A stretch of DNA of 64,000 nt from Candidatus Latescibacterota bacterium (GTDB lineage Bacteria; Latescibacterota; UBA2968; UBA8231). Below the pieces are notes generated by a model. That model ran no database searches and was not told where the DNA came from. It saw nothing but the letters and a program-made list of their open reading frames with translations. How positions within the stretch are numbered: position 1 is the stretch's first letter; each line of letters begins with the position of its first letter. Positions 7,391 through 12,987 of this stretch are shown here, piece by piece. Position numbers and translations under genes: made by a program. The stretch spans positions 3,200,001 through 3,264,000 of the forward strand of contig OZ242318.1 in NCBI GenBank assembly GCA_965208105.1. The letters are read 5' to 3'.

Positions 7391-7428
7391 AATACCGCGG
7401 GCGCAACCAATGCGCTCGCGGTATTTTT
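7391..7428 (+). terminator. Attenuator (intrinsic terminator) hairpin
   Basis: AATACCGCGGGCGCA-ACCAA-TGCGCTCGCGGTATT (15-bp stem with one G-U) running into a T tract, 17 nt before the trpE(G) ATG. Confidence 0.8.
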
Positions 7429-7445
7429 GTGAATGGAGAGCGAAG

Positions 7446-9605
7446 ATGAGTGCAACACCGGTTACCGGTTCAACGACCGAAACTTTCCGGAGCAGGGGCG
7501 GGGTCGATATCCGCCGCACGATAGAAGGGGTGCCGATGGAGGGAGCTCTGGAAGGCGTGCTGGAGAAAATCGATACGCATCGCGGGGCGGTCTTTGCAAG
7601 TGGGTACGAGTATCCCGGACGCTACAGCCGCTGGGACGTTGCCTTCGTCGATCCTCCCCTGGAGATTGCCGCACGCCAGCGCTCCTTTGCGCTTCGCGCA
7701 TTGAACGAGCGCGGCGAGCGGCTCCTGCAGATTTTTGCCGGAGCTCTGAAAGGCCACGATCACCTGGCCGAGCTCGACGCGGCCAAAGACGAAATCCGCG
7801 GCCAGGTGAAACCCATGCTGGAGTACTTCGCCGAGGAGGAGCGCAGCAAGCAGCCGACGATCTTCAGCGTTCTGCGCGCCCTGGTCCGCCTGATGTACGC
7901 CGAGGCGGACAACAACCTGGGATTCTACGGAGCCATGGGCTATGACCTGGTTTTTCAGTTCGAACCCATTGAACTGCGCCACTCGCGCCCGGCTGAACAC
8001 CTGGATCTGCACCTCTTCGTGCCCGACGAACTGATCGTCGTCGATCACCGCAAGGAGAGGGCCAGGCGAATTCGCTACGATTTCACTTCGGGAGACCACT
8101 CTACCCGTGGCCTGGAGCGCGGCGGTGACGTGCTGCCGTTGCTGCGGGGCGCGACGACGGAGGTGAACAGCGACCACGGTGCGGGCGAGTACGCCGGCAA
8201 GGTGGGCGAAATCATCGCGGGCACGGAACGGGGCGACTTCTTCGAGGTGGTGCTGGGCCAGGTGCTGTGCGCGGGCTATTCAGGAACCCCTCGCGACCTG
8301 TTCGAGAGTATTCGCAGGAGGAATCCGAGTCCCTACGAGTTTTTGATAAACCTCGGCGGGGAGCAACTGGTGGGCGCCTCCCCCGAGATGTTCGTGCGGA
8401 TGGAGGACCGCCTGGTGGAGACCTGCCCCATTGCCGGGACGATCCAGCGCGGGGAAACTCCCATGGAAGACGCCGATCGGATTCTGGAGCTGCTGAACTC
8501 CGAAAAGGACAATGCCGAGCTCACCATGTGCACGGACGTGGACCGCAACGACAAGTCGAGAGTCTGCAAGCCCGGTACGGTTCAGGTGCTCGGGCGACGG
8601 CTCGTGGAGATATACTCGAAGCTGATCCACACGGTGGACTACGTCGCCGGAGAGCTGCGCGACGACTGCGATGGTTTCGACGCTCTGCTCTCGCACATGT
8701 GGGCGTGCACCGTGACCGGCGCCCCCAAGCCGGCCGCTATGCAGAAGATCGAGGACCTTGAGAACTCGGCTCGTCGCTGGTACGGCGGCTGCGTTGGAAT
8801 GGTGTTGTTCAGCGGCGAAGTAAATACGGGCATTACCATACGAACGGTGCACCTGGAGAATGGCAAGGCCAGCGTTCGCGCCGGCGCCACCCTGCTATGC
8901 GACTCGGACCCGGTGGAAGAAGAGCTCGAGACGCGGACCAAGGCGGAAGCCTTCATCCAGGCCATTCTCGACCAGGCACCCCCATCGAAGGGTCCACATG
9001 GAGCGGTTGCCGACACCGGCAGGGGCAAGAGGGTTCTCTTTGTGGACAATCGCGATTCGTTCGTTCACACTCTGGCCAACTACGTGCGCCAGACCGGAGC
9101 CGAGGTGACGACGGTGCGCGCGGGTTTCCCCGACCAGGTCTTTGACCAGGTCCGCCCCGACCTGGTTTTCATTTCTCCAGGACCTGGCACGCCGGAGGAG
9201 TTCGGCGTGGGGGAGCTGGTGCACCGCTGTGTCGAGCGCAGGCTTCCAATCTTTGGAGTCTGCCTCGGCCTGCAGGGGATGGTCGAGGCCTTCGGCGGCA
9301 GATTGGGAGTATTGTCGTACCCCATGCATGGCAAAAGTTCGATGATAAAGTGCATTCCCCGAGGAATTCTCGAAGGGTTTCCGGAGGAATTTGTCGCCGG
9401 ACGCTATCACTCGCTCTTCGCCGAGCCCGAGGATCTGCCCGACTGCTTTACCGTGTCCGCCCGCAGCGAAGACGGCGTGATCATGGCCGTGCAGCACCGG
9501 GAGTATCCAGCCGCCGCCGTGCAGTTTCACCCCGAGTCGATTCTGACCTTGAAGGACGATCTGGGGCTGCGCCTCATCGCCCAGGTCATGGCCCAATTGA
9601 CCTAG
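7446..9605 (+). CDS. trpE: Anthranilate synthase, fused component I + II (TrpE(G))
   Basis: SGYEYPGRYSRWD N-terminus, NPSPY, PIAGT, ELTMCTDVDRND, GAPK, then GATase domain (DNRDSF, SPGPG, GVCLG, QFHPES). Confidence 0.93.
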   Translation: MSATPVTGSTTETFRSRGGVDIRRTIEGVPMEGALEGVLEKIDTHRGAVFASGYEYPGRYSRWDVAFVDPPLEIAARQRSFALRALNERGERLLQIFAGALKGHDHLAELDAAKDEIRGQVKPMLEYFAEEERSKQPTIFSVLRALVRLMYAEADNNLGFYGAMGYDLVFQFEPIELRHSRPAEHLDLHLFVPDELIVVDHRKERARRIRYDFTSGDHSTRGLERGGDVLPLLRGATTEVNSDHGAGEYAGKVGEIIAGTERGDFFEVVLGQVLCAGYSGTPRDLFESIRRRNPSPYEFLINLGGEQLVGASPEMFVRMEDRLVETCPIAGTIQRGETPMEDADRILELLNSEKDNAELTMCTDVDRNDKSRVCKPGTVQVLGRRLVEIYSKLIHTVDYVAGELRDDCDGFDALLSHMWACTVTGAPKPAAMQKIEDLENSARRWYGGCVGMVLFSGEVNTGITIRTVHLENGKASVRAGATLLCDSDPVEEELETRTKAEAFIQAILDQAPPSKGPHGAVADTGRGKRVLFVDNRDSFVHTLANYVRQTGAEVTTVRAGFPDQVFDQVRPDLVFISPGPGTPEEFGVGELVHRCVERRLPIFGVCLGLQGMVEAFGGRLGVLSYPMHGKSSMIKCIPRGILEGFPEEFVAGRYHSLFAEPEDLPDCFTVSARSEDGVIMAVQHREYPAAAVQFHPESILTLKDDLGLRLIAQVMAQLT

Positions 9606-9718
9606 ACCTTATGTATTGACGGAGATATGAAAGACCTCCTCCGACTCGGTTGTCGGGGGTTATCTTTGGGAAAACGGAGTTCACCCAAAGACCTATCCCC
9701 AGCGAGAAGGAGGAGGCC

Positions 9719-10858
9719 ATGCGTAAATCTACGAAATTCGTCGCCTTGGACATACATAAAGATTCGATCACCGTCGCCCTGGCCGGTGAAGGCCGAAAAG
9801 GGCCAGACCTGTATGGAACGATACCGTCTACGGGCGCCGCGTTGTCCAAGCTGGCGGGCCAACTGGCCCGTGGTGGGACCTCGTTGCGGTTTTGCTACGA
9901 GGCCGGACCCTGCGGCTACGGCGTCTACCGTCAGCTCACAGCCCTGGGGCACGCCTGCACGGTGGTGGCGCCCTCGCTGATCCCGCGTCGGCCGGGCGAC
10001 CGCATCAAGACCGACCGCCGCGATGCTGTGTCTCTGGTGCGGCTTTTCCAACACGGCGAGTTGACCCCCGTGTGGGTGCCCGACGAAGCGCAGGAGGCGA
10101 TGCGCGATCTGGAGCGCTGCCGGGAAGACTTCAAGCACGCCGAGCGCCGCGTGCGCCAGCGGCTGAACAGCTTCTTGCAGCGCCACGGCCGGATCTACTC
10201 CGGGCGCAGTCGCTGGACCCAAGCCCACTTTCGCTGGCTGCAGACCCAGCGCTTCGATCATCCGGCCCAGCAGATCGTCTTTCAGGAATACGTGGACGCG
10301 GTACAGGAAGCCCAAGGTCGGATCCAGGGGTTGGACCAGGCCCTGCAGCAGGCGCTGGAGGGATGGTCTTTGGAAGGGGAGACGCGGGCTATGAGGGCGC
10401 TGCGCGGGGTAGACACGCTCACCGCGGTTACGACCCTGGCCGAGTTGGGGGACCTCACCCGCTTTGACTCGCCGCGCCAACTGATGGCCTTCGTCGGTCT
10501 GGTCCCCAGCGAGCATTCCAGCGGCTCCCGCCAAAAGCGAGGGGCGATCACCAAGGCGGGCAACGCCCACGTGCGGCGCGTGCTGGTGGAAGCCGCCTGG
10601 TGCTATCGCTTTCCCGCCCGCAAGACGGCCGCCTTGCAACGACGCGCCGAACAGACCGCACCCCCCATACAGGCCATCGCCTGGAAGGCACAGAAACGCC
10701 TGTGTGGGCGCTATCGACGGCTGAGTGGGCGAGGGATGCCGAAAAACAAAGTCTGCACCGCGATCGCGCGGGAGCTTTTGGGTTTCATCTGGGCCATCGC
10801 CTGGGAGCAGAAACGCCCCGGCCGCCTCGTGGCCAGGAGGCCTCGGATCGCCGCCTGA
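9719..10858 (+). CDS. IS110-family DEDD recombinase/transposase
   Basis: ALDIHKD, YEAGPCG, KTDRRDA (DEDD RuvC-like domain) and GLVPSEHSSG...GAITKAGN (Tnp domain with serine); AGGAGG RBS. Confidence 0.95.
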   Translation: MRKSTKFVALDIHKDSITVALAGEGRKGPDLYGTIPSTGAALSKLAGQLARGGTSLRFCYEAGPCGYGVYRQLTALGHACTVVAPSLIPRRPGDRIKTDRRDAVSLVRLFQHGELTPVWVPDEAQEAMRDLERCREDFKHAERRVRQRLNSFLQRHGRIYSGRSRWTQAHFRWLQTQRFDHPAQQIVFQEYVDAVQEAQGRIQGLDQALQQALEGWSLEGETRAMRALRGVDTLTAVTTLAELGDLTRFDSPRQLMAFVGLVPSEHSSGSRQKRGAITKAGNAHVRRVLVEAAWCYRFPARKTAALQRRAEQTAPPIQAIAWKAQKRLCGRYRRLSGRGMPKNKVCTAIARELLGFIWAIAWEQKRPGRLVARRPRIAA

Positions 10859-10890
10859 TAAGCTCATCGTCTCAGAAGCCGGCATAGGAC

Positions 10891-11098
10891 CTTTGCTCAT
10901 GTAAATCGAAACGGGACAGAAGGGACCGGTCAGGAGAATCCTCGAAGACACTATGAGGCGCCTATCAGGCTGACCCTCGACTCTAGATTGAGGCCGCTCC
11001 GCGACGCACCCAGGACAGGCGGTAACCAACCCGCGAATATCAGTCGGATCAACCGTCGCTACAGCGTCCCTTCTGTTCCCGAACAAACTCATGCAAAG
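10891..11098 (+). ncRNA. Putative bridge RNA / seekRNA in the IS right end
   Basis: Basal stem 10913-10926 / 11066-11080 encloses two stem-loops with internal loops; loop sequences GACACTA and CTAG match the target, ATATCAG matches the IS end. Confidence 0.72.
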
Positions 11099-11153
11099 AT
11101 AACACCCGAAACGACCACCCCGGAGGGGGTTGACAACCGTCAATACATATCAG

Positions 11154-11317
11154 TGTCCCGTAGCAGAGATATGTCGCCATTATTCCGCCGATCCATCCCG
11201 GCTCACGGCGTTGCCTTCACTCGCCGTACACCACTGGTACGACTCGCTCAGGCGCCTTGTGAGCCGGGCGCCTCGGCGGCCCAATTTCGTCAACCTATCT
11301 CTGCGACGGGACACTAG
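11154..11317. mobile_element. MITE-like repeat, copy 1 (160 bp + CTAG)
   Basis: Terminal IRs TGTCCCGTAGCAGAGATA / TATCTCTGCGACGGGACA (17/18 match); flanking CTAG (left one displaced to 9602-9605 by the IS); nested internal palindromes; second copy at 25946-26113. Confidence 0.85.
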
Positions 11318-11384
11318 CGGAACCATGGTGGGACCTGGGCGAGGCACATCAGGATCGGATCCTTCGTTCACCAGGGGCAGACAA

Positions 11385-11948
11385 GTGATCTTGGTACTTG
11401 ATAATTACGATTCGTTTACCTACAATTTGACCCAATATCTCCAAATCCTTGGCGCCCAGGTCCTCGTGTATCAGAACGATGAGCTTTCCATCGAGGAGAT
11501 CGAGGCCCTGGCCCCGGAGAAAATCGTCATATCTCCGGGGCCTTCCACGCCCGACCAGGCGGGCATCTCCCTGGAGGTTGTCCGCCGTTTCGCCCCGGGG
11601 ATTCCCCTGCTCGGGGTTTGCCTGGGCCACCAGGCAATCGGACAAGCTTTCGGCGGAGTGGTGGCGCGGGCTCCTCGTGTCGTGCACGGAAAGACCGCGG
11701 AGATCTACCACGATGGCCGCACCATCTATGAGGGACTGGACAATCCACTGGTCGCCACCTGCTATCACTCACTGATGGTGGAGCGCGAAACGGTTCCGGA
11801 TTGTCTCGAGATTTCCGCCGAGACCGAAGACGGAATCGTAATGGGGTTGCGCCACAGGAAGTACGCCGTCGAAGGGGTGCAATTTCACCCGGAATCGATT
11901 CTCACGACCCAGGGCAAAGACCTTTTGAGCAATTTCCTGCGGGAATAA
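11385..11948 (+). CDS. trpG: Glutamine amidotransferase, anthranilate synthase component II / PabA
   Basis: GTG start; ILVLDNYDSFTYNL, ISPGP, GVCLGHQ, GVQFHPES. Confidence 0.92.
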   Translation: MILVLDNYDSFTYNLTQYLQILGAQVLVYQNDELSIEEIEALAPEKIVISPGPSTPDQAGISLEVVRRFAPGIPLLGVCLGHQAIGQAFGGVVARAPRVVHGKTAEIYHDGRTIYEGLDNPLVATCYHSLMVERETVPDCLEISAETEDGIVMGLRHRKYAVEGVQFHPESILTTQGKDLLSNFLRE

Positions 11949-11976
11949 GGACACCTTCCAGAGCAAAGGGCAGAGG

Positions 11977-12987
11977 ATGATACAGGAAGCCATACAAAAA
12001 CTCGTCGGTGGACGCGGTCTGACCCGCGAAGAAGCTCGCGGGGTGATGGACCAGATCATGAGCGGCGGAGCTACCGATGCCCAGATCGGGGCCTTTCTGG
12101 TCGCCTTGCGCTGCAAGGGAGAGAGCGTGGACGAAATCGCCGGCTGCGCCCAGGCGATGCGGGAGAAGGCTACCCGCGTCCAGACAAGCAGGGACCCGGT
12201 GATCGACACTTGCGGCACGGGAGGTGACGGTTCCGGTACCTTCAACATTTCGACGACCGTCGCTTTCGTTGCAGCCGGAGCCGGGTTGTGCGTGGCCAAG
12301 CACGGCAACCGCGCCATGTCGAGCCAGTGCGGTTCGGCGGACGTGCTTCAGGCCCTGGGGGTCAATATAGAAATCAGCCCCGACAAGGTGGGGAAATGCC
12401 TCGACGAGGCGGGCATCGGCTTTCTGTTTGCACCGCTGCTCCATGGCGCAATGAAGCACGCAATCGGTCCCCGCCGCGAGATCGGTGCGCGCACGGTTTT
12501 CAATGCCCTCGGGCCGCTGACCAATCCCGCCGGTGCCAGGAGGCAGTTGATCGGTGTTTACGACGGCGATCTGACCGGGAAGCTGGCCGGGGTGCTGCAT
12601 GAACTGGGCTCGGAACGCGCCTTCGTAGTCCATGGCAGCGACGGTTTGGACGAGATTACCCTGACCGGCATGACCCGGGTCGCCGAGCTGAACGCTGGAA
12701 GCATCGAAACCTACGAGATCAGGCCCGGGGATTTGGGTTTCGATGAAGCCGGAGTGGAGGAGCTGAAGGGAGGCAATGCGGAGGAGAACGCGGGGATCCT
12801 GCTGGAGGTGCTCGATGGAGGGAAAGGACCCCGCAGTGATGTGGTGTTGATGAACGCAGCCGCAGCCATCGCGGCCGGTGGCCTGGCGTCCAGCCTGGAG
12901 GAAGGGGTCGACCGGGCGCGATCCGCGATTTCCTCGGGCAGGGCGCGGGAAGCCCTCGAGAAGCTGAAAGGGGTAAGCAATAGTTGA
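11977..12987 (+). CDS. trpD: Anthranilate phosphoribosyltransferase
   Basis: DTCGTGGDG, NISTT, KHGNRAMSS, GLDEIT. Confidence 0.96.
   Translation: MIQEAIQKLVGGRGLTREEARGVMDQIMSGGATDAQIGAFLVALRCKGESVDEIAGCAQAMREKATRVQTSRDPVIDTCGTGGDGSGTFNISTTVAFVAAGAGLCVAKHGNRAMSSQCGSADVLQALGVNIEISPDKVGKCLDEAGIGFLFAPLLHGAMKHAIGPRREIGARTVFNALGPLTNPAGARRQLIGVYDGDLTGKLAGVLHELGSERAFVVHGSDGLDEITLTGMTRVAELNAGSIETYEIRPGDLGFDEAGVEELKGGNAEENAGILLEVLDGGKGPRSDVVLMNAAAAIAAGGLASSLEEGVDRARSAISSGRAREALEKLKGVSNS

What the first reader, a model, noticed from the sequence alone, without database searches (positions are those of the whole stretch)
9602..11317. IS110 element whose bridge-RNA-like right end appears programmed to target the end of a MITE
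Seen: deleting 9606-11153 restores ...GACCTAG|TGTCCCGTAGCAGAGATA, the intact CTAG-flanked left IR of a 160-bp repeat, so the IS sits exactly at the MITE terminus with an AG core. The right non-coding end folds into a basal stem plus two loops. Loop 1 is an 11x11 internal loop (10944-10954 / 10979-10989) carrying GACACTA (10947-10953, reverse complement of target TAGTGTC) and CTAG (10983-10986). Loop 2 carries ATATCAG (11037-11043, identical to the IS right end 11147-11153) opposite AGGACAG (partial match to the left-end bottom strand AGGTCTG). Established: IS110/IS1111 recombinases use a non-coding bridge/seek RNA with target- and donor-binding loops, and some members target transposon IRs or REP-like repeats. 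Inference: this is an RNA-guided recombinase parasitising a non-autonomous repeat family, with a readable guide code. The other end of MITE copy 1 (GGGACACTAG) still matches the guide, whereas both ends of copy 2 (GGGGCACTAG, CTAGTTTA) mismatch and are unoccupied.
Basis: partly seen in the sequence, partly recalled or inferred. Interest (0 to 1): 0.85.

Follow-up and report, generated by a model that had tools for sequence, protein, structure and literature searches.

The report
RNA-guided insertion sequence aimed at MITE ends
This is a working-looking IS1111-type (IS110 family) insertion sequence whose own guide RNA spells out the 8-base junction at the tip of a small repeat (MITE), a real and readable case of a kind of element already described in 2024.

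Summary

- **Element.** Window 9606-11153 is a 1548-bp IS110-family element of the IS1111 type. It has a DEDD/Ser transposase, 13-bp subterminal inverted repeats and a 295-nt non-coding end downstream of the transposase gene.
- **Insertion sites.** The genome holds 12 copies. All 12 lie between CTAG and TG, and 10 of 12 lie exactly at the tip of a ~164-bp MITE (CTAG|TGTCCCGT).
- **Guide RNA.** The non-coding end folds into a basal stem and two arms. This fold is kept in 42 relatives: 24 of 41 pairs show compensatory change, and 0 of 500 shuffles reach the observed score.
  - Arm 1 carries GACACUA, the complement of TAGTGTC, opposite CUAG.
  - Arm 2 carries AUAUCAG, identical to the IS right end.
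- **Covariation.** Across 33 distinct relatives the two arm-1 strands covary with their own right and left flanks (0 of 10,000 permutations each).
- **Wider pattern.** Relatives also sit at the tips of CTAG-flanked IS630-type and IS5-type elements and their MITEs.
- **Precedent.** Bridge/seek RNAs of IS1111 elements, IS1111 inserting into a Coxiella MITE, and IS4321/IS5075 inserting into transposon ends are all published. This is a new member of a known kind.
- **Not shown.** RNA expression and recombinase activity remain untested.

The parts
9602..9605 (+). Left half of the target (CTAG). TAG at 9603-9605 is also the stop codon of the upstream trpE-G fusion gene. AG at 9604-9605 is the inferred core shared with the IS right end.
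   Evidence: 12 of 12 copies have CTAG here.
9606..11153 (+). IS1111-type (IS110 family) insertion sequence, 1548 bp.
   Evidence: 11 full-length copies plus 1 with a 120-bp internal deletion in the genome; identical ends in all 12.
9610..9622 (+). Left subterminal inverted repeat, TATGTATTGACGG. It is preceded by the terminal extension ACCTT (9606-9610, sharing T9610).
   Evidence: The motif is conserved in 57 of 80 related loci.
9719..10858 (+). Transposase/recombinase gene, 379 aa. A GGAGGAGG ribosome-binding site lies at 9709-9716.
   Evidence: DEDD residues and the Ser-Gly motif align with the ISCro4 and IS621 recombinases.
10913..11080 (+). Predicted bridge/seek RNA core: basal stem 10913-10926 / 11066-11080 enclosing two arms.
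   Evidence: Covariance model R1 finds it in all 12 copies at 152-163 bits.
10945..10953 (+). Target guide T, the 5' strand of the arm-1 internal loop (AAGACACUA). Its last 7 nt pair with the top strand TAGTGTC, that is core plus right flank.
10980..10987 (+). Target guide B, the 3' strand of the arm-1 loop (ACUCUAGA). UCUAG/CUAG equals the top strand of the left flank, so it pairs with the bottom strand.
   Evidence: positions -3 33/33, -4 29/33, -5 22/33..
11007..11018 (+). Arm-2 5' strand. It has a partial complement (5 of 8) to CAG plus the left end ACCTT. Two of its bases form a covarying intramolecular helix.
   Evidence: (helix 6).
11035..11045 (+). Arm-2 3' strand (donor guide). AUAUCAG at 11037-11043 is identical to the IS right end.
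   Evidence: 19 of 23 distinct guide/end combinations match 7/7. It covaries in L031 and the L040 group.
11137..11149 (+). Right subterminal inverted repeat, CCGTCAATACATA, followed by TCAG. The terminal AG at 11152-11153 is the core copy.
11154..11317 (+). MITE copy: 160 bp plus CTAG, with 18-nt terminal inverted repeats at 11154-11171 and 11296-11313. Its left tip is the right half of the IS target.
   Evidence: about 100 copies and 197 ends tabulated.

Best explanation
Window 9606-11153 is a recently active IS1111-type member of the IS110 family.

**Inferred mechanism.** Its DEDD/Ser recombinase is guided by a ~170-nt bridge (seek) RNA encoded in the 295-nt right non-coding end.
- Arm 1 of the RNA is the target-binding loop. 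[quoted passage not shown] - The two pairings overlap on TAG. The exchange happens in the AG core, which the target shares with the IS right end.
- Arm 2 is the donor-binding loop. [quoted passage not shown] A weaker, discontinuous match faces the left end.

**Target.** The specified word, (T)CTAG|TGTC, is the junction between the TA/CTAG flank and the terminal inverted repeat of a ~164-bp MITE. The MITE supplies most copies of that word in the genome, so the IS accumulates at MITE tips, at either end.

**Shown:** family membership, copy number, insertion sites, conserved RNA fold, and guide/flank covariation.

**Inferred:** that the RNA is made, is bound by the recombinase and directs recombination.
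For: **Protein**
- Pfam DEDD_Tnp_IS110 (5.6e-13) and Transposase_20 (1.7e-22).
- NCBIfam 'IS110 family RNA-guided transposase', 263 bits against a cut-off of 140.
- DEDD residues and the Ser-Gly motif align with the solved ISCro4 and IS621 recombinases.
- The motif GLVPSEHSSG fits GL-P----S(t)G, given for IS1111 transposases in PMC11187229 section 6.

**Layout**
- 13-bp subterminal inverted repeats.
- A 113-nt left end against a 295-nt right non-coding end.

**Insertion sites**
- 12 of 12 copies lie at CTAG|TG and 10 of 12 at CTAG|TGTCCCGT. Seven sit at one MITE end and three at the other.
- Seven copies are about 100% identical, while their MITEs are only 92.7-100% alike. The IS therefore entered pre-existing MITEs.
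- A same-genus genome has the orthologous trp locus with neither the IS nor the MITE.

**RNA fold**
- z -3.14.
- In 42 relatives, 94.2% of cells are paired against 38-46% when partners are slid. 24 of 41 pairs change on both sides. 0 of 500 shuffles reach the observed score.

**Guide code**
- 5'-strand guide against the right flank +1..+6: 4.33 of 6 match, against 1.86 when permuted (0 of 10,000).
- 3'-strand guide against the left flank -7..-3: 3.09 of 5 against 1.79 (0 of 10,000). Both use 33 distinct guide pairs.
- Full 9/9 matches occur in L026, L030, L031, L033, L040, L042, L070 and L079.
- A diverged copy in the same-genus genome carries AGCGCACUA and sits at CTAG|TGTGCC: 7 Watson-Crick pairs plus 1 G:T.
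- The donor guide equals the right end in 19 of 23 combinations, with two co-changes.

**Published layout**
- The strand order (top-strand match 5' of bottom-strand match, overlapping in the target) is the one published for IS1111 seekRNAs.
- The core is included in each pairing, as in IS621.
Against: - No direct evidence of the RNA. Metatranscriptome contigs of 3 runs from 2 studies cover 10862-11083 at 90-99% identity. Contigs cannot show ends or strand, and DNA can be present in such libraries.
- No sigma-70-like promoter was found in the element or across the computed circle junction.
- No Rfam family reached even E=1 inside the IS.
- The left-end donor match is poor: 5 of 8 here and 4-7 of 8 in relatives, always mismatched at the first core base.
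- Two copies (at G000 2701797 and 2923420) carry AUAG instead of CUAG in the 3'-strand guide, yet sit at CTAG.
- Occupancy does not distinguish MITE from non-MITE sites. Ten of 81 MITE-borne CTAGTGTC words are occupied, against 0 of 16 elsewhere. The difference is too small to show that anything beyond the 8-mer matters.
- One same-genus copy with the same guide sits at CTAG|GTGTTCC, which is a left-arm match only.
- Relatives share guide and target partly by descent, so permutation counts overstate independence.
- The transposase is 379 aa, outside the 330-350 aa given for IS1111 transposases.
Confidence: 0.9

Rival explanations
1. The recombinase protein alone recognises the MITE inverted repeat. 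The loop matches would then be coincidence, or passive remnants of the target.
For: - Only 7 plus 4-5 nt match in this element.
- No RNA has been demonstrated.
- The MITE repeat is a long conserved sequence that a protein could read.
Against: - Both 7-mers arise together in only 7 of 20,000 shuffles.
- In 33 relatives with about 30 different flanks, the loop strands change with the flanks.
- The two non-MITE insertions share only CTAG|TG(T/G) with the MITE tip, which is the guide-paired part.
Confidence: 0.03
2. The association has the opposite cause. Either the TA/CTAG-seeking MITE inserted next to the IS, or IS plus MITE travel as one composite unit.
For: - The MITE does hit xTAG sites.
- One MITE sits inside the xTAG of an old IS relic's guide loop.
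Against: - IS copies are about 100% identical, while the adjoining MITEs differ by up to 7% and occur in both orientations.
- The IS splits a junction that is intact at 71 other MITE ends.
- The sequence to the left of the IS is unique at each copy and ends in the MITE's own CTAG flank.
- Two copies have no MITE at all.
Confidence: 0.03
3. The guide code is real, but the copies are now inert relics of a past burst, with the RNA or recombinase no longer made.
For: - No promoter-like site was found.
- Several decayed relics exist.
- 71 perfect sites remain empty.
Against: - Seven copies are about 100% identical with intact 379-aa frames.
- Related sequences occur in RNA libraries.
- The promoter scan uses an E. 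coli-type consensus that may not apply to this organism.
Confidence: 0.1

Closest known systems
IS1111-type seekRNA elements ISEc11, ISPa11, ISKpn4 and ISPst6 (Siddiquee et al. 2024, PMC11187229; sections 6, 9 and 13 read)
   Same: - Subterminal inverted repeats.
- A long non-coding region downstream of tnp.
- The RNA segment complementary to the top strand lies 5' of the one complementary to the bottom strand, and the two overlap in the target.
- The GL-P----S(t)G motif.
   Different: - The transposase is 379 aa rather than 330-350 aa.
- The target here is a MITE tip.
- No RNA or activity data exist here.
IS621 bridge RNA (Durrant et al. 2024, PMC11208160, passages read; structures 8wt6 and others)
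   Same: - Two internal loops, one for the target and one for the donor.
- Each strand pairs with one DNA strand.
[quoted passage not shown]
- One donor arm pairs discontinuously.
   Different: - The RNA lies in the right end, not the left.
- Guide order is reversed.
- The core is AG rather than CT.
- The subterminal repeats are 13 bp rather than 2-3 bp.
- Only 27 bits of sequence similarity, confined to the C-terminal domain.
IS1111 in QMITE2 of Coxiella burnetii (Wachter et al. 2018, PMC5896051, passages read)
   Same: An IS1111-group element whose copies almost all (20 of 21) sit in one MITE family.
   Different: There the site is a GTAG palindrome 10-20 bp inside the MITE. Here it is the flank/inverted-repeat junction itself, at either end.
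[quoted passage not shown]
   Same: IS1111-group elements that specialise on the ends of another transposon.
   Different: The host element is a Tn3-family transposon rather than a TA-flanked MITE. The position within the repeat differs (recalled, not checked).
ISPpu9/ISPpu10 in REP sequences of Pseudomonas putida (PMC12288879 and bioRxiv 2026.03.19.712850; abstracts only)
   Same: IS110-family elements confined to a multicopy intergenic repeat.
   Different: REP elements are not transposon ends. ISPpu9 also has stand-alone RNA gene copies. None were found here beyond one relic.

Membership tests
IS110 family, IS1111 group | N-terminal DEDD (RuvC-like) domain with the four acidic residues | tested here: met
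   PF01548 at 5.6e-13. D, E, D and D align with ISCro4.
IS110 family, IS1111 group | C-terminal PF02371 domain with the conserved Ser-Gly (GL-P----S(t)G) | tested here: met
   PF02371 at 1.7e-22. GLVPSEHSSG is in the translation. The motif is as given in PMC11187229.
IS110 family, IS1111 group | Curated family model score above the cut-off | tested here: met
   NF033542, 263.4 bits against 140.
IS110 family, IS1111 group | Subterminal inverted repeats of 7-17 bp with short terminal extensions | tested here: met
   13 bp at 9610-9622 and 11137-11149. Conserved in relatives.
IS110 family, IS1111 group | Longer non-coding region downstream of tnp | tested here: met
   113 nt upstream against 295 nt downstream.
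IS110 family, IS1111 group | Site-specific insertion without a conventional target duplication, with a short core shared by target and donor | tested here: met
   12 of 12 copies at CTAG|TG. AG is present both in the left flank and at the IS right end.
IS110 family, IS1111 group | Transposase of 330-350 aa (a descriptive range in PMC11187229, not a definition) | tested here: not met
   379 aa.
Bridge RNA / seekRNA | Conserved two-arm structure with internal loops | tested here: met
   24 of 41 pairs show compensatory change.
Bridge RNA / seekRNA | Loop strands complementary to both strands of the target, overlapping at the core, and covarying with the target | tested here: met
Bridge RNA / seekRNA | Second loop complementary to both IS ends | tested here: inconclusive
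   The right-end match is 7/7 and covaries. The left-end match is only 4-7 of 8.
Bridge RNA / seekRNA | The RNA is transcribed, binds the recombinase and is required for transposition | not testable with these tools
   Only metatranscriptome contigs are available.
Bridge RNA / seekRNA | Match to a curated RNA family | tested here: not met
   No Rfam match inside the IS at E up to 1. Whether Rfam 15 holds an IS1111-type model at all was not established.
MITE (the target element) | Short, non-coding, multicopy, with terminal inverted repeats and flanking duplication | tested here: met
   - 164 bp, about 100 copies, 18-nt inverted repeats.
- Flanks pair as TTAG/CTAG, which fits a TA duplication (inference).
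- No autonomous partner was found in this genome.

The most novel reading that the evidence does not exclude
The element may belong to a cross-phylum clade of IS1111-type bridge-RNA elements that live as hyperparasites on the tips of TA/CTAG-flanked transposons (IS630-type, IS5-type and their MITEs).

- Both target guides keep a fixed UAG anchor.
- The next 4-6 nt are retuned to the inverted repeat of whichever transposon is resident.
- That includes retuning within one genus (GACACUA for TGTC tips, GCGCACUA for TGTGCC tips).
- Reciprocal hits occur too: a MITE has landed in the xTAG of a guide loop.
Probability: 0.45. Interest if true: 0.6.

Novelty: new member of a known kind. Interest (0 to 1): 0.4.

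Why it matters
- **A natural data set for the guide code.** It gives a clean example of a bridge/seek RNA code that can be read from sequence alone. Twelve insertions in one genome and about 30 differently targeted relatives show which positions count: TAG plus 4 nt to the right, and 4-5 nt to the left. They also show how much mismatch and G:T wobble is tolerated.
- **A safe-harbour strategy.** Aiming at the tips of other mobile elements avoids disrupting host genes.
- **An orthologue panel.** Relatives share one scaffold but carry many guides. That is the kind of panel used to study or engineer programmable recombinases.

It does not change the current picture of IS110/IS1111 biology.

Tried and rejected
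- **Rfam**. Only two sub-threshold hits, both outside the IS. Nothing is claimed from them.
- **Promoter scans.** The linear element and a circle junction computed inside a script gave no sigma-70-like site. This is uninformative for an organism whose promoters are unknown.
- **Autonomous parent of the MITE**. No inverted pair of the MITE repeat at IS-like spacing was found, so IS630-type parentage rests only on the TA-like flank pattern.
- **RNA evidence**.
  - Runs X1, X2, X3 and X6, from 3 studies, were laid as contigs. They cover tnp, the RNA region and the MITE at 90-99% identity.
  - Uncovered bins, depth and ends cannot be interpreted, so I do not claim expression.
- **Occupancy as a specificity test.** Ten of 81 MITE-borne sites against 0 of 16 non-MITE CTAGTGTC sites, and 0 occupied ends of the second MITE family in the 14 copies aligned, are too few to be significant.
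- **Left-end donor guide.** Read as a simple complement it fails at the first core base in every one of the 36 distinct combinations. I did not find a better register.
- **Rows dropped.**
  - Of 80 related loci, 23 lacked the repeat motif on one or both sides within the stored DNA.
  - 4 were shorter than 1400 bp between the repeats.
  - Of the 54 remaining rows (53 loci plus the window), 10 lacked a full guide or flank. The other 44 collapsed to 33 distinct guide pairs, taking the first locus of each.
  - For the structure alignment, L068, L082 and L085 (under 150 nt aligned) and L055 (5'-truncated) were left out, giving 42 of 43 distinct cores.
  - The register was fixed at TAG+6, so elements with AAG/GAG flanks (L064, L071, L084), which fit one base shifted, count as poor matches in the permutation test.
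- **Claims about what is in print.** Searches found no paper describing IS110-family targeting of IS630/IS5-type termini. Those searches cover open-access text only.

Full report
**What is there.** Window 9606-11153 is a 1548-bp element.
- It lies between the stop codon of a trpE-G fusion gene (TAG at 9603-9605, part of CTAG at 9602-9605) and a 164-bp inverted-repeat element at 11154-11317.
- Its single gene (9719-10858, 379 aa) matches Pfam DEDD_Tnp_IS110 and Transposase_20. It also matches the NCBIfam model 'IS110 family RNA-guided transposase' at 263 bits against a cut-off of 140.
- It aligns with the solved ISCro4 and IS621 recombinases through the four acidic residues and the Ser-Gly motif.
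- The element has 13-bp subterminal inverted repeats at 9610-9622 and 11137-11149. The left non-coding end is 113 nt and the right one 295 nt.
- That is the IS1111-type layout described in PMC11187229 and PMC11208160.

**Copies and sites.**
- The genome (one contig, 4.85 Mb) holds 11 full-length copies at 95-100% identity and one with a 120-bp internal deletion.
- All 12 have CTAG on the left and TG on the right. Ten of 12 are followed by TGCCCGT-type MITE sequence reading TGTCCCGT(C/A/G)GCAGA, the tip of the MITE.
- The MITE family has about 100 copies. I tabulated 197 ends. Ten are occupied, seven at one end and three at the other. Of the 187 free ends, 71 read CTAG|TGTC.
- Genome-wide there are 87 intact CTAGTGTC words, and 71 of them are MITE tips.
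- The two non-MITE insertions are at CTAG|TGGTCG and CTAG|TGTTGT.
- Seven IS copies are about 100% identical, while the adjoining MITEs are 92.7-100% alike and lie in both orientations. The IS therefore entered older MITEs.
- In a same-genus genome the orthologous trp intergenic region carries neither the IS nor the MITE.

**The RNA.**
- Positions 10891-11098 fold into a basal stem and two arms (-70.1 kcal/mol, z -3.14, 0 of 200 shuffles fold as well).
- Transposase relatives at 57-85% identity were found in 80 loci from many phyla. 57 of them keep the repeat motif and the ends AG|ACATC or ACCTT ... ATCAG|.
- An alignment of 42 distinct RNA cores gives the same structure.
  - 41 pairs, with 94.2% of cells paired against 38-46% when partners are slid.
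  - 24 pairs with changes on both sides.
  - 0 of 500 shuffles reach the observed values.
- A covariance model built from the alignment finds all 12 copies at 152-163 bits, plus one relic.

**The guide code.**
- In arm 1 the 5' loop strand AAGACACUA (10945-10953) is complementary over 7 nt to TAG|TGTC.
- The 3' loop strand ACUCUAGA (10980-10987) repeats (T)CTAG of the left flank.
- The decisive test is covariation across 33 distinct guide pairs with about 30 different flanks.
  - The 5' strand matches its own right flank at 4.33 of 6 variable positions, against 1.86 after permutation (0 of 10,000).
  - The 3' strand matches its own left flank at 3.09 of 5, against 1.79 (0 of 10,000).
  - Agreement per position is 30, 27, 28, 25, 18 and 15 of 33 for +1 to +6, and 33, 29, 22, 9 and 9 of 33 for -3 to -7.
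- The functional word is therefore about 4-5 nt on the left, including the AG core, and 4-6 nt on the right.
- This is the order reported for IS1111 seekRNAs: the top-strand match lies 5' of the bottom-strand match, and the two overlap.
- The two off-MITE insertions pair 5 and 6 Watson-Crick positions plus one G:T with the same guide.
- A diverged copy in the same-genus genome carries AGCGCACUA and sits at CTAG|TGTGCC. A third copy there, with the window's guide, sits at a site matching only the left arm. That fits the 'half-match' off-target behaviour reported for IS621 in a 2026 preprint (passages).

**The donor loop.**
- AUAUCAG (11037-11043) equals the right end. The match is 7/7 in 19 of 23 distinct combinations, and it changes together with the end in L031 and in the L040 group.
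- The opposite strand matches CAG plus the left end at only 5 of 8 here and 4-7 of 8 elsewhere. It always fails at the first core base.
- Two of its bases form a covarying intramolecular helix.
- Durrant et al. note discontinuous donor pairing in IS621 and multi-loop donor sites in IS1111 orthologues. This part is compatible with the model but not demonstrated.

**What is not shown.**
- Expression is not shown. Contigs from metatranscriptome runs of sponge, marine and coral samples hold close relatives of the tnp gene, the RNA region and the IS-MITE junction. Contigs cannot prove transcription.
- No promoter-like site was found.
- Two copies carry AUAG in the left guide yet sit at CTAG.

**Beyond the finding.**
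- I tested 49 loci whose right flank was long enough. In 10 of them the flank's first 14 nt recur as an inverted copy downstream, and in 9 of those 10 the inverted copy is followed by CTAG.
- These targets fall into three kinds.
  - A 1176-bp IS630-family element in L019 (HTH plus DDE_3).
  - A 1562-bp IS5-like element in L054 (DDE_Tnp_1 plus DUF772), and its ~160-bp MITE derivatives in L025, L033, L040, L042 and L045.
  - A 140-bp MITE in L046.
- The clade therefore repeatedly sits on the tips of other transposons.
- In this genome a second MITE family shares the core but has the repeat TGCCTGCTTGCG.
- One decayed IS relic abuts such a tip.
- An older reversed IS relic is split exactly at the xTAG of its own guide loop by a MITE that now carries IS copy 3.

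**Comparison and verdict.**
- Bridge/seek RNAs of IS110 and IS1111 elements were described in 2024 (PMC11208160, PMC11187229).
- IS1111 itself sits in the QMITE2 element of Coxiella in 20 of 21 copies (PMC5896051).
- IS4321/IS5075 target Tn21-family repeats (a title seen; details recalled).
- This element meets every tested defining feature of the IS1111 group except the descriptive size range.
- It is a new member of a known kind. Its particular points of interest are an unusually clear within-genome record of its guide code and a possible clade-wide habit of targeting TA/CTAG-flanked transposon tips.
- Confidence in the main reading is 0.9. Interest is 0.4.

Noticed in passing
G000:C1 948, 142711, 255489, 670516, 1097004 and 9 more (outside the window): A second MITE family shares the central ~100 bp of the target MITE (about 87% identity) but has different terminal repeats (TGCCTGCTTGCGCA). 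It is also flanked by CTAG. None of the 14 aligned copies carries the IS.
   Followed up: partly
G000:C1:3999566-4001432 (locus L003): An older, diverged IS relic in reverse orientation is split exactly at the xTAG of its own 3'-strand guide loop. The insert is a MITE that now carries IS copy 3 at its tip. The relic's 5'-strand guide reads ACTGCACTA, which would specify TAG|TGCAGT.
   Followed up: partly
G000:C1:3931299-3931644 (loci L014, L111): A decayed IS fragment (RNA region plus right end, no tnp) abuts TGCCTGCTTGCGCAATTCC, the repeat of the second MITE family. That MITE looks chimeric, because its far end resembles the first family.
   Followed up: partly
window 7410-12987: The IS plus MITE sit inside a trp gene cluster, between a trpE-G fusion and a second glutamine amidotransferase gene followed by a probable trpD gene. 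The fusion's stop codon is the TAG of the target. A same-genus genome has the uninterrupted spacer (L113 2090-2160).
   Followed up: partly
L019:4424-5599; L054:1561-3122: The right flanks of two relatives are complete CTAG-flanked insertion sequences. L019 has an IS630-family element (HTH plus DDE_3, apparently in two frames). L054 has an IS5-like element (DDE_Tnp_1 plus DUF772).
   Followed up: yes
window 11155 and 11315 (run X3, loose ends): Environmental contigs show the IS right end joined to the second MITE family's tip. They also show the reverse-complemented IS right end joined to the far end of the first MITE.
   Followed up: no
window 10982, 10983, 10988: The 3'-strand target guide is the most variable part of the RNA among genomic copies (ACUCUAGA, ACCCUAGA, ACCAUAGA). 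It is also variable in the metatranscriptome contigs.
   Followed up: partly
L071, L072, L074, L075: Four copies of a relative in one Longimicrobiales assembly share both flanks over at least 20 nt on each side. Their target is an internal site of another repeat, not an obvious transposon tip.
   Followed up: no
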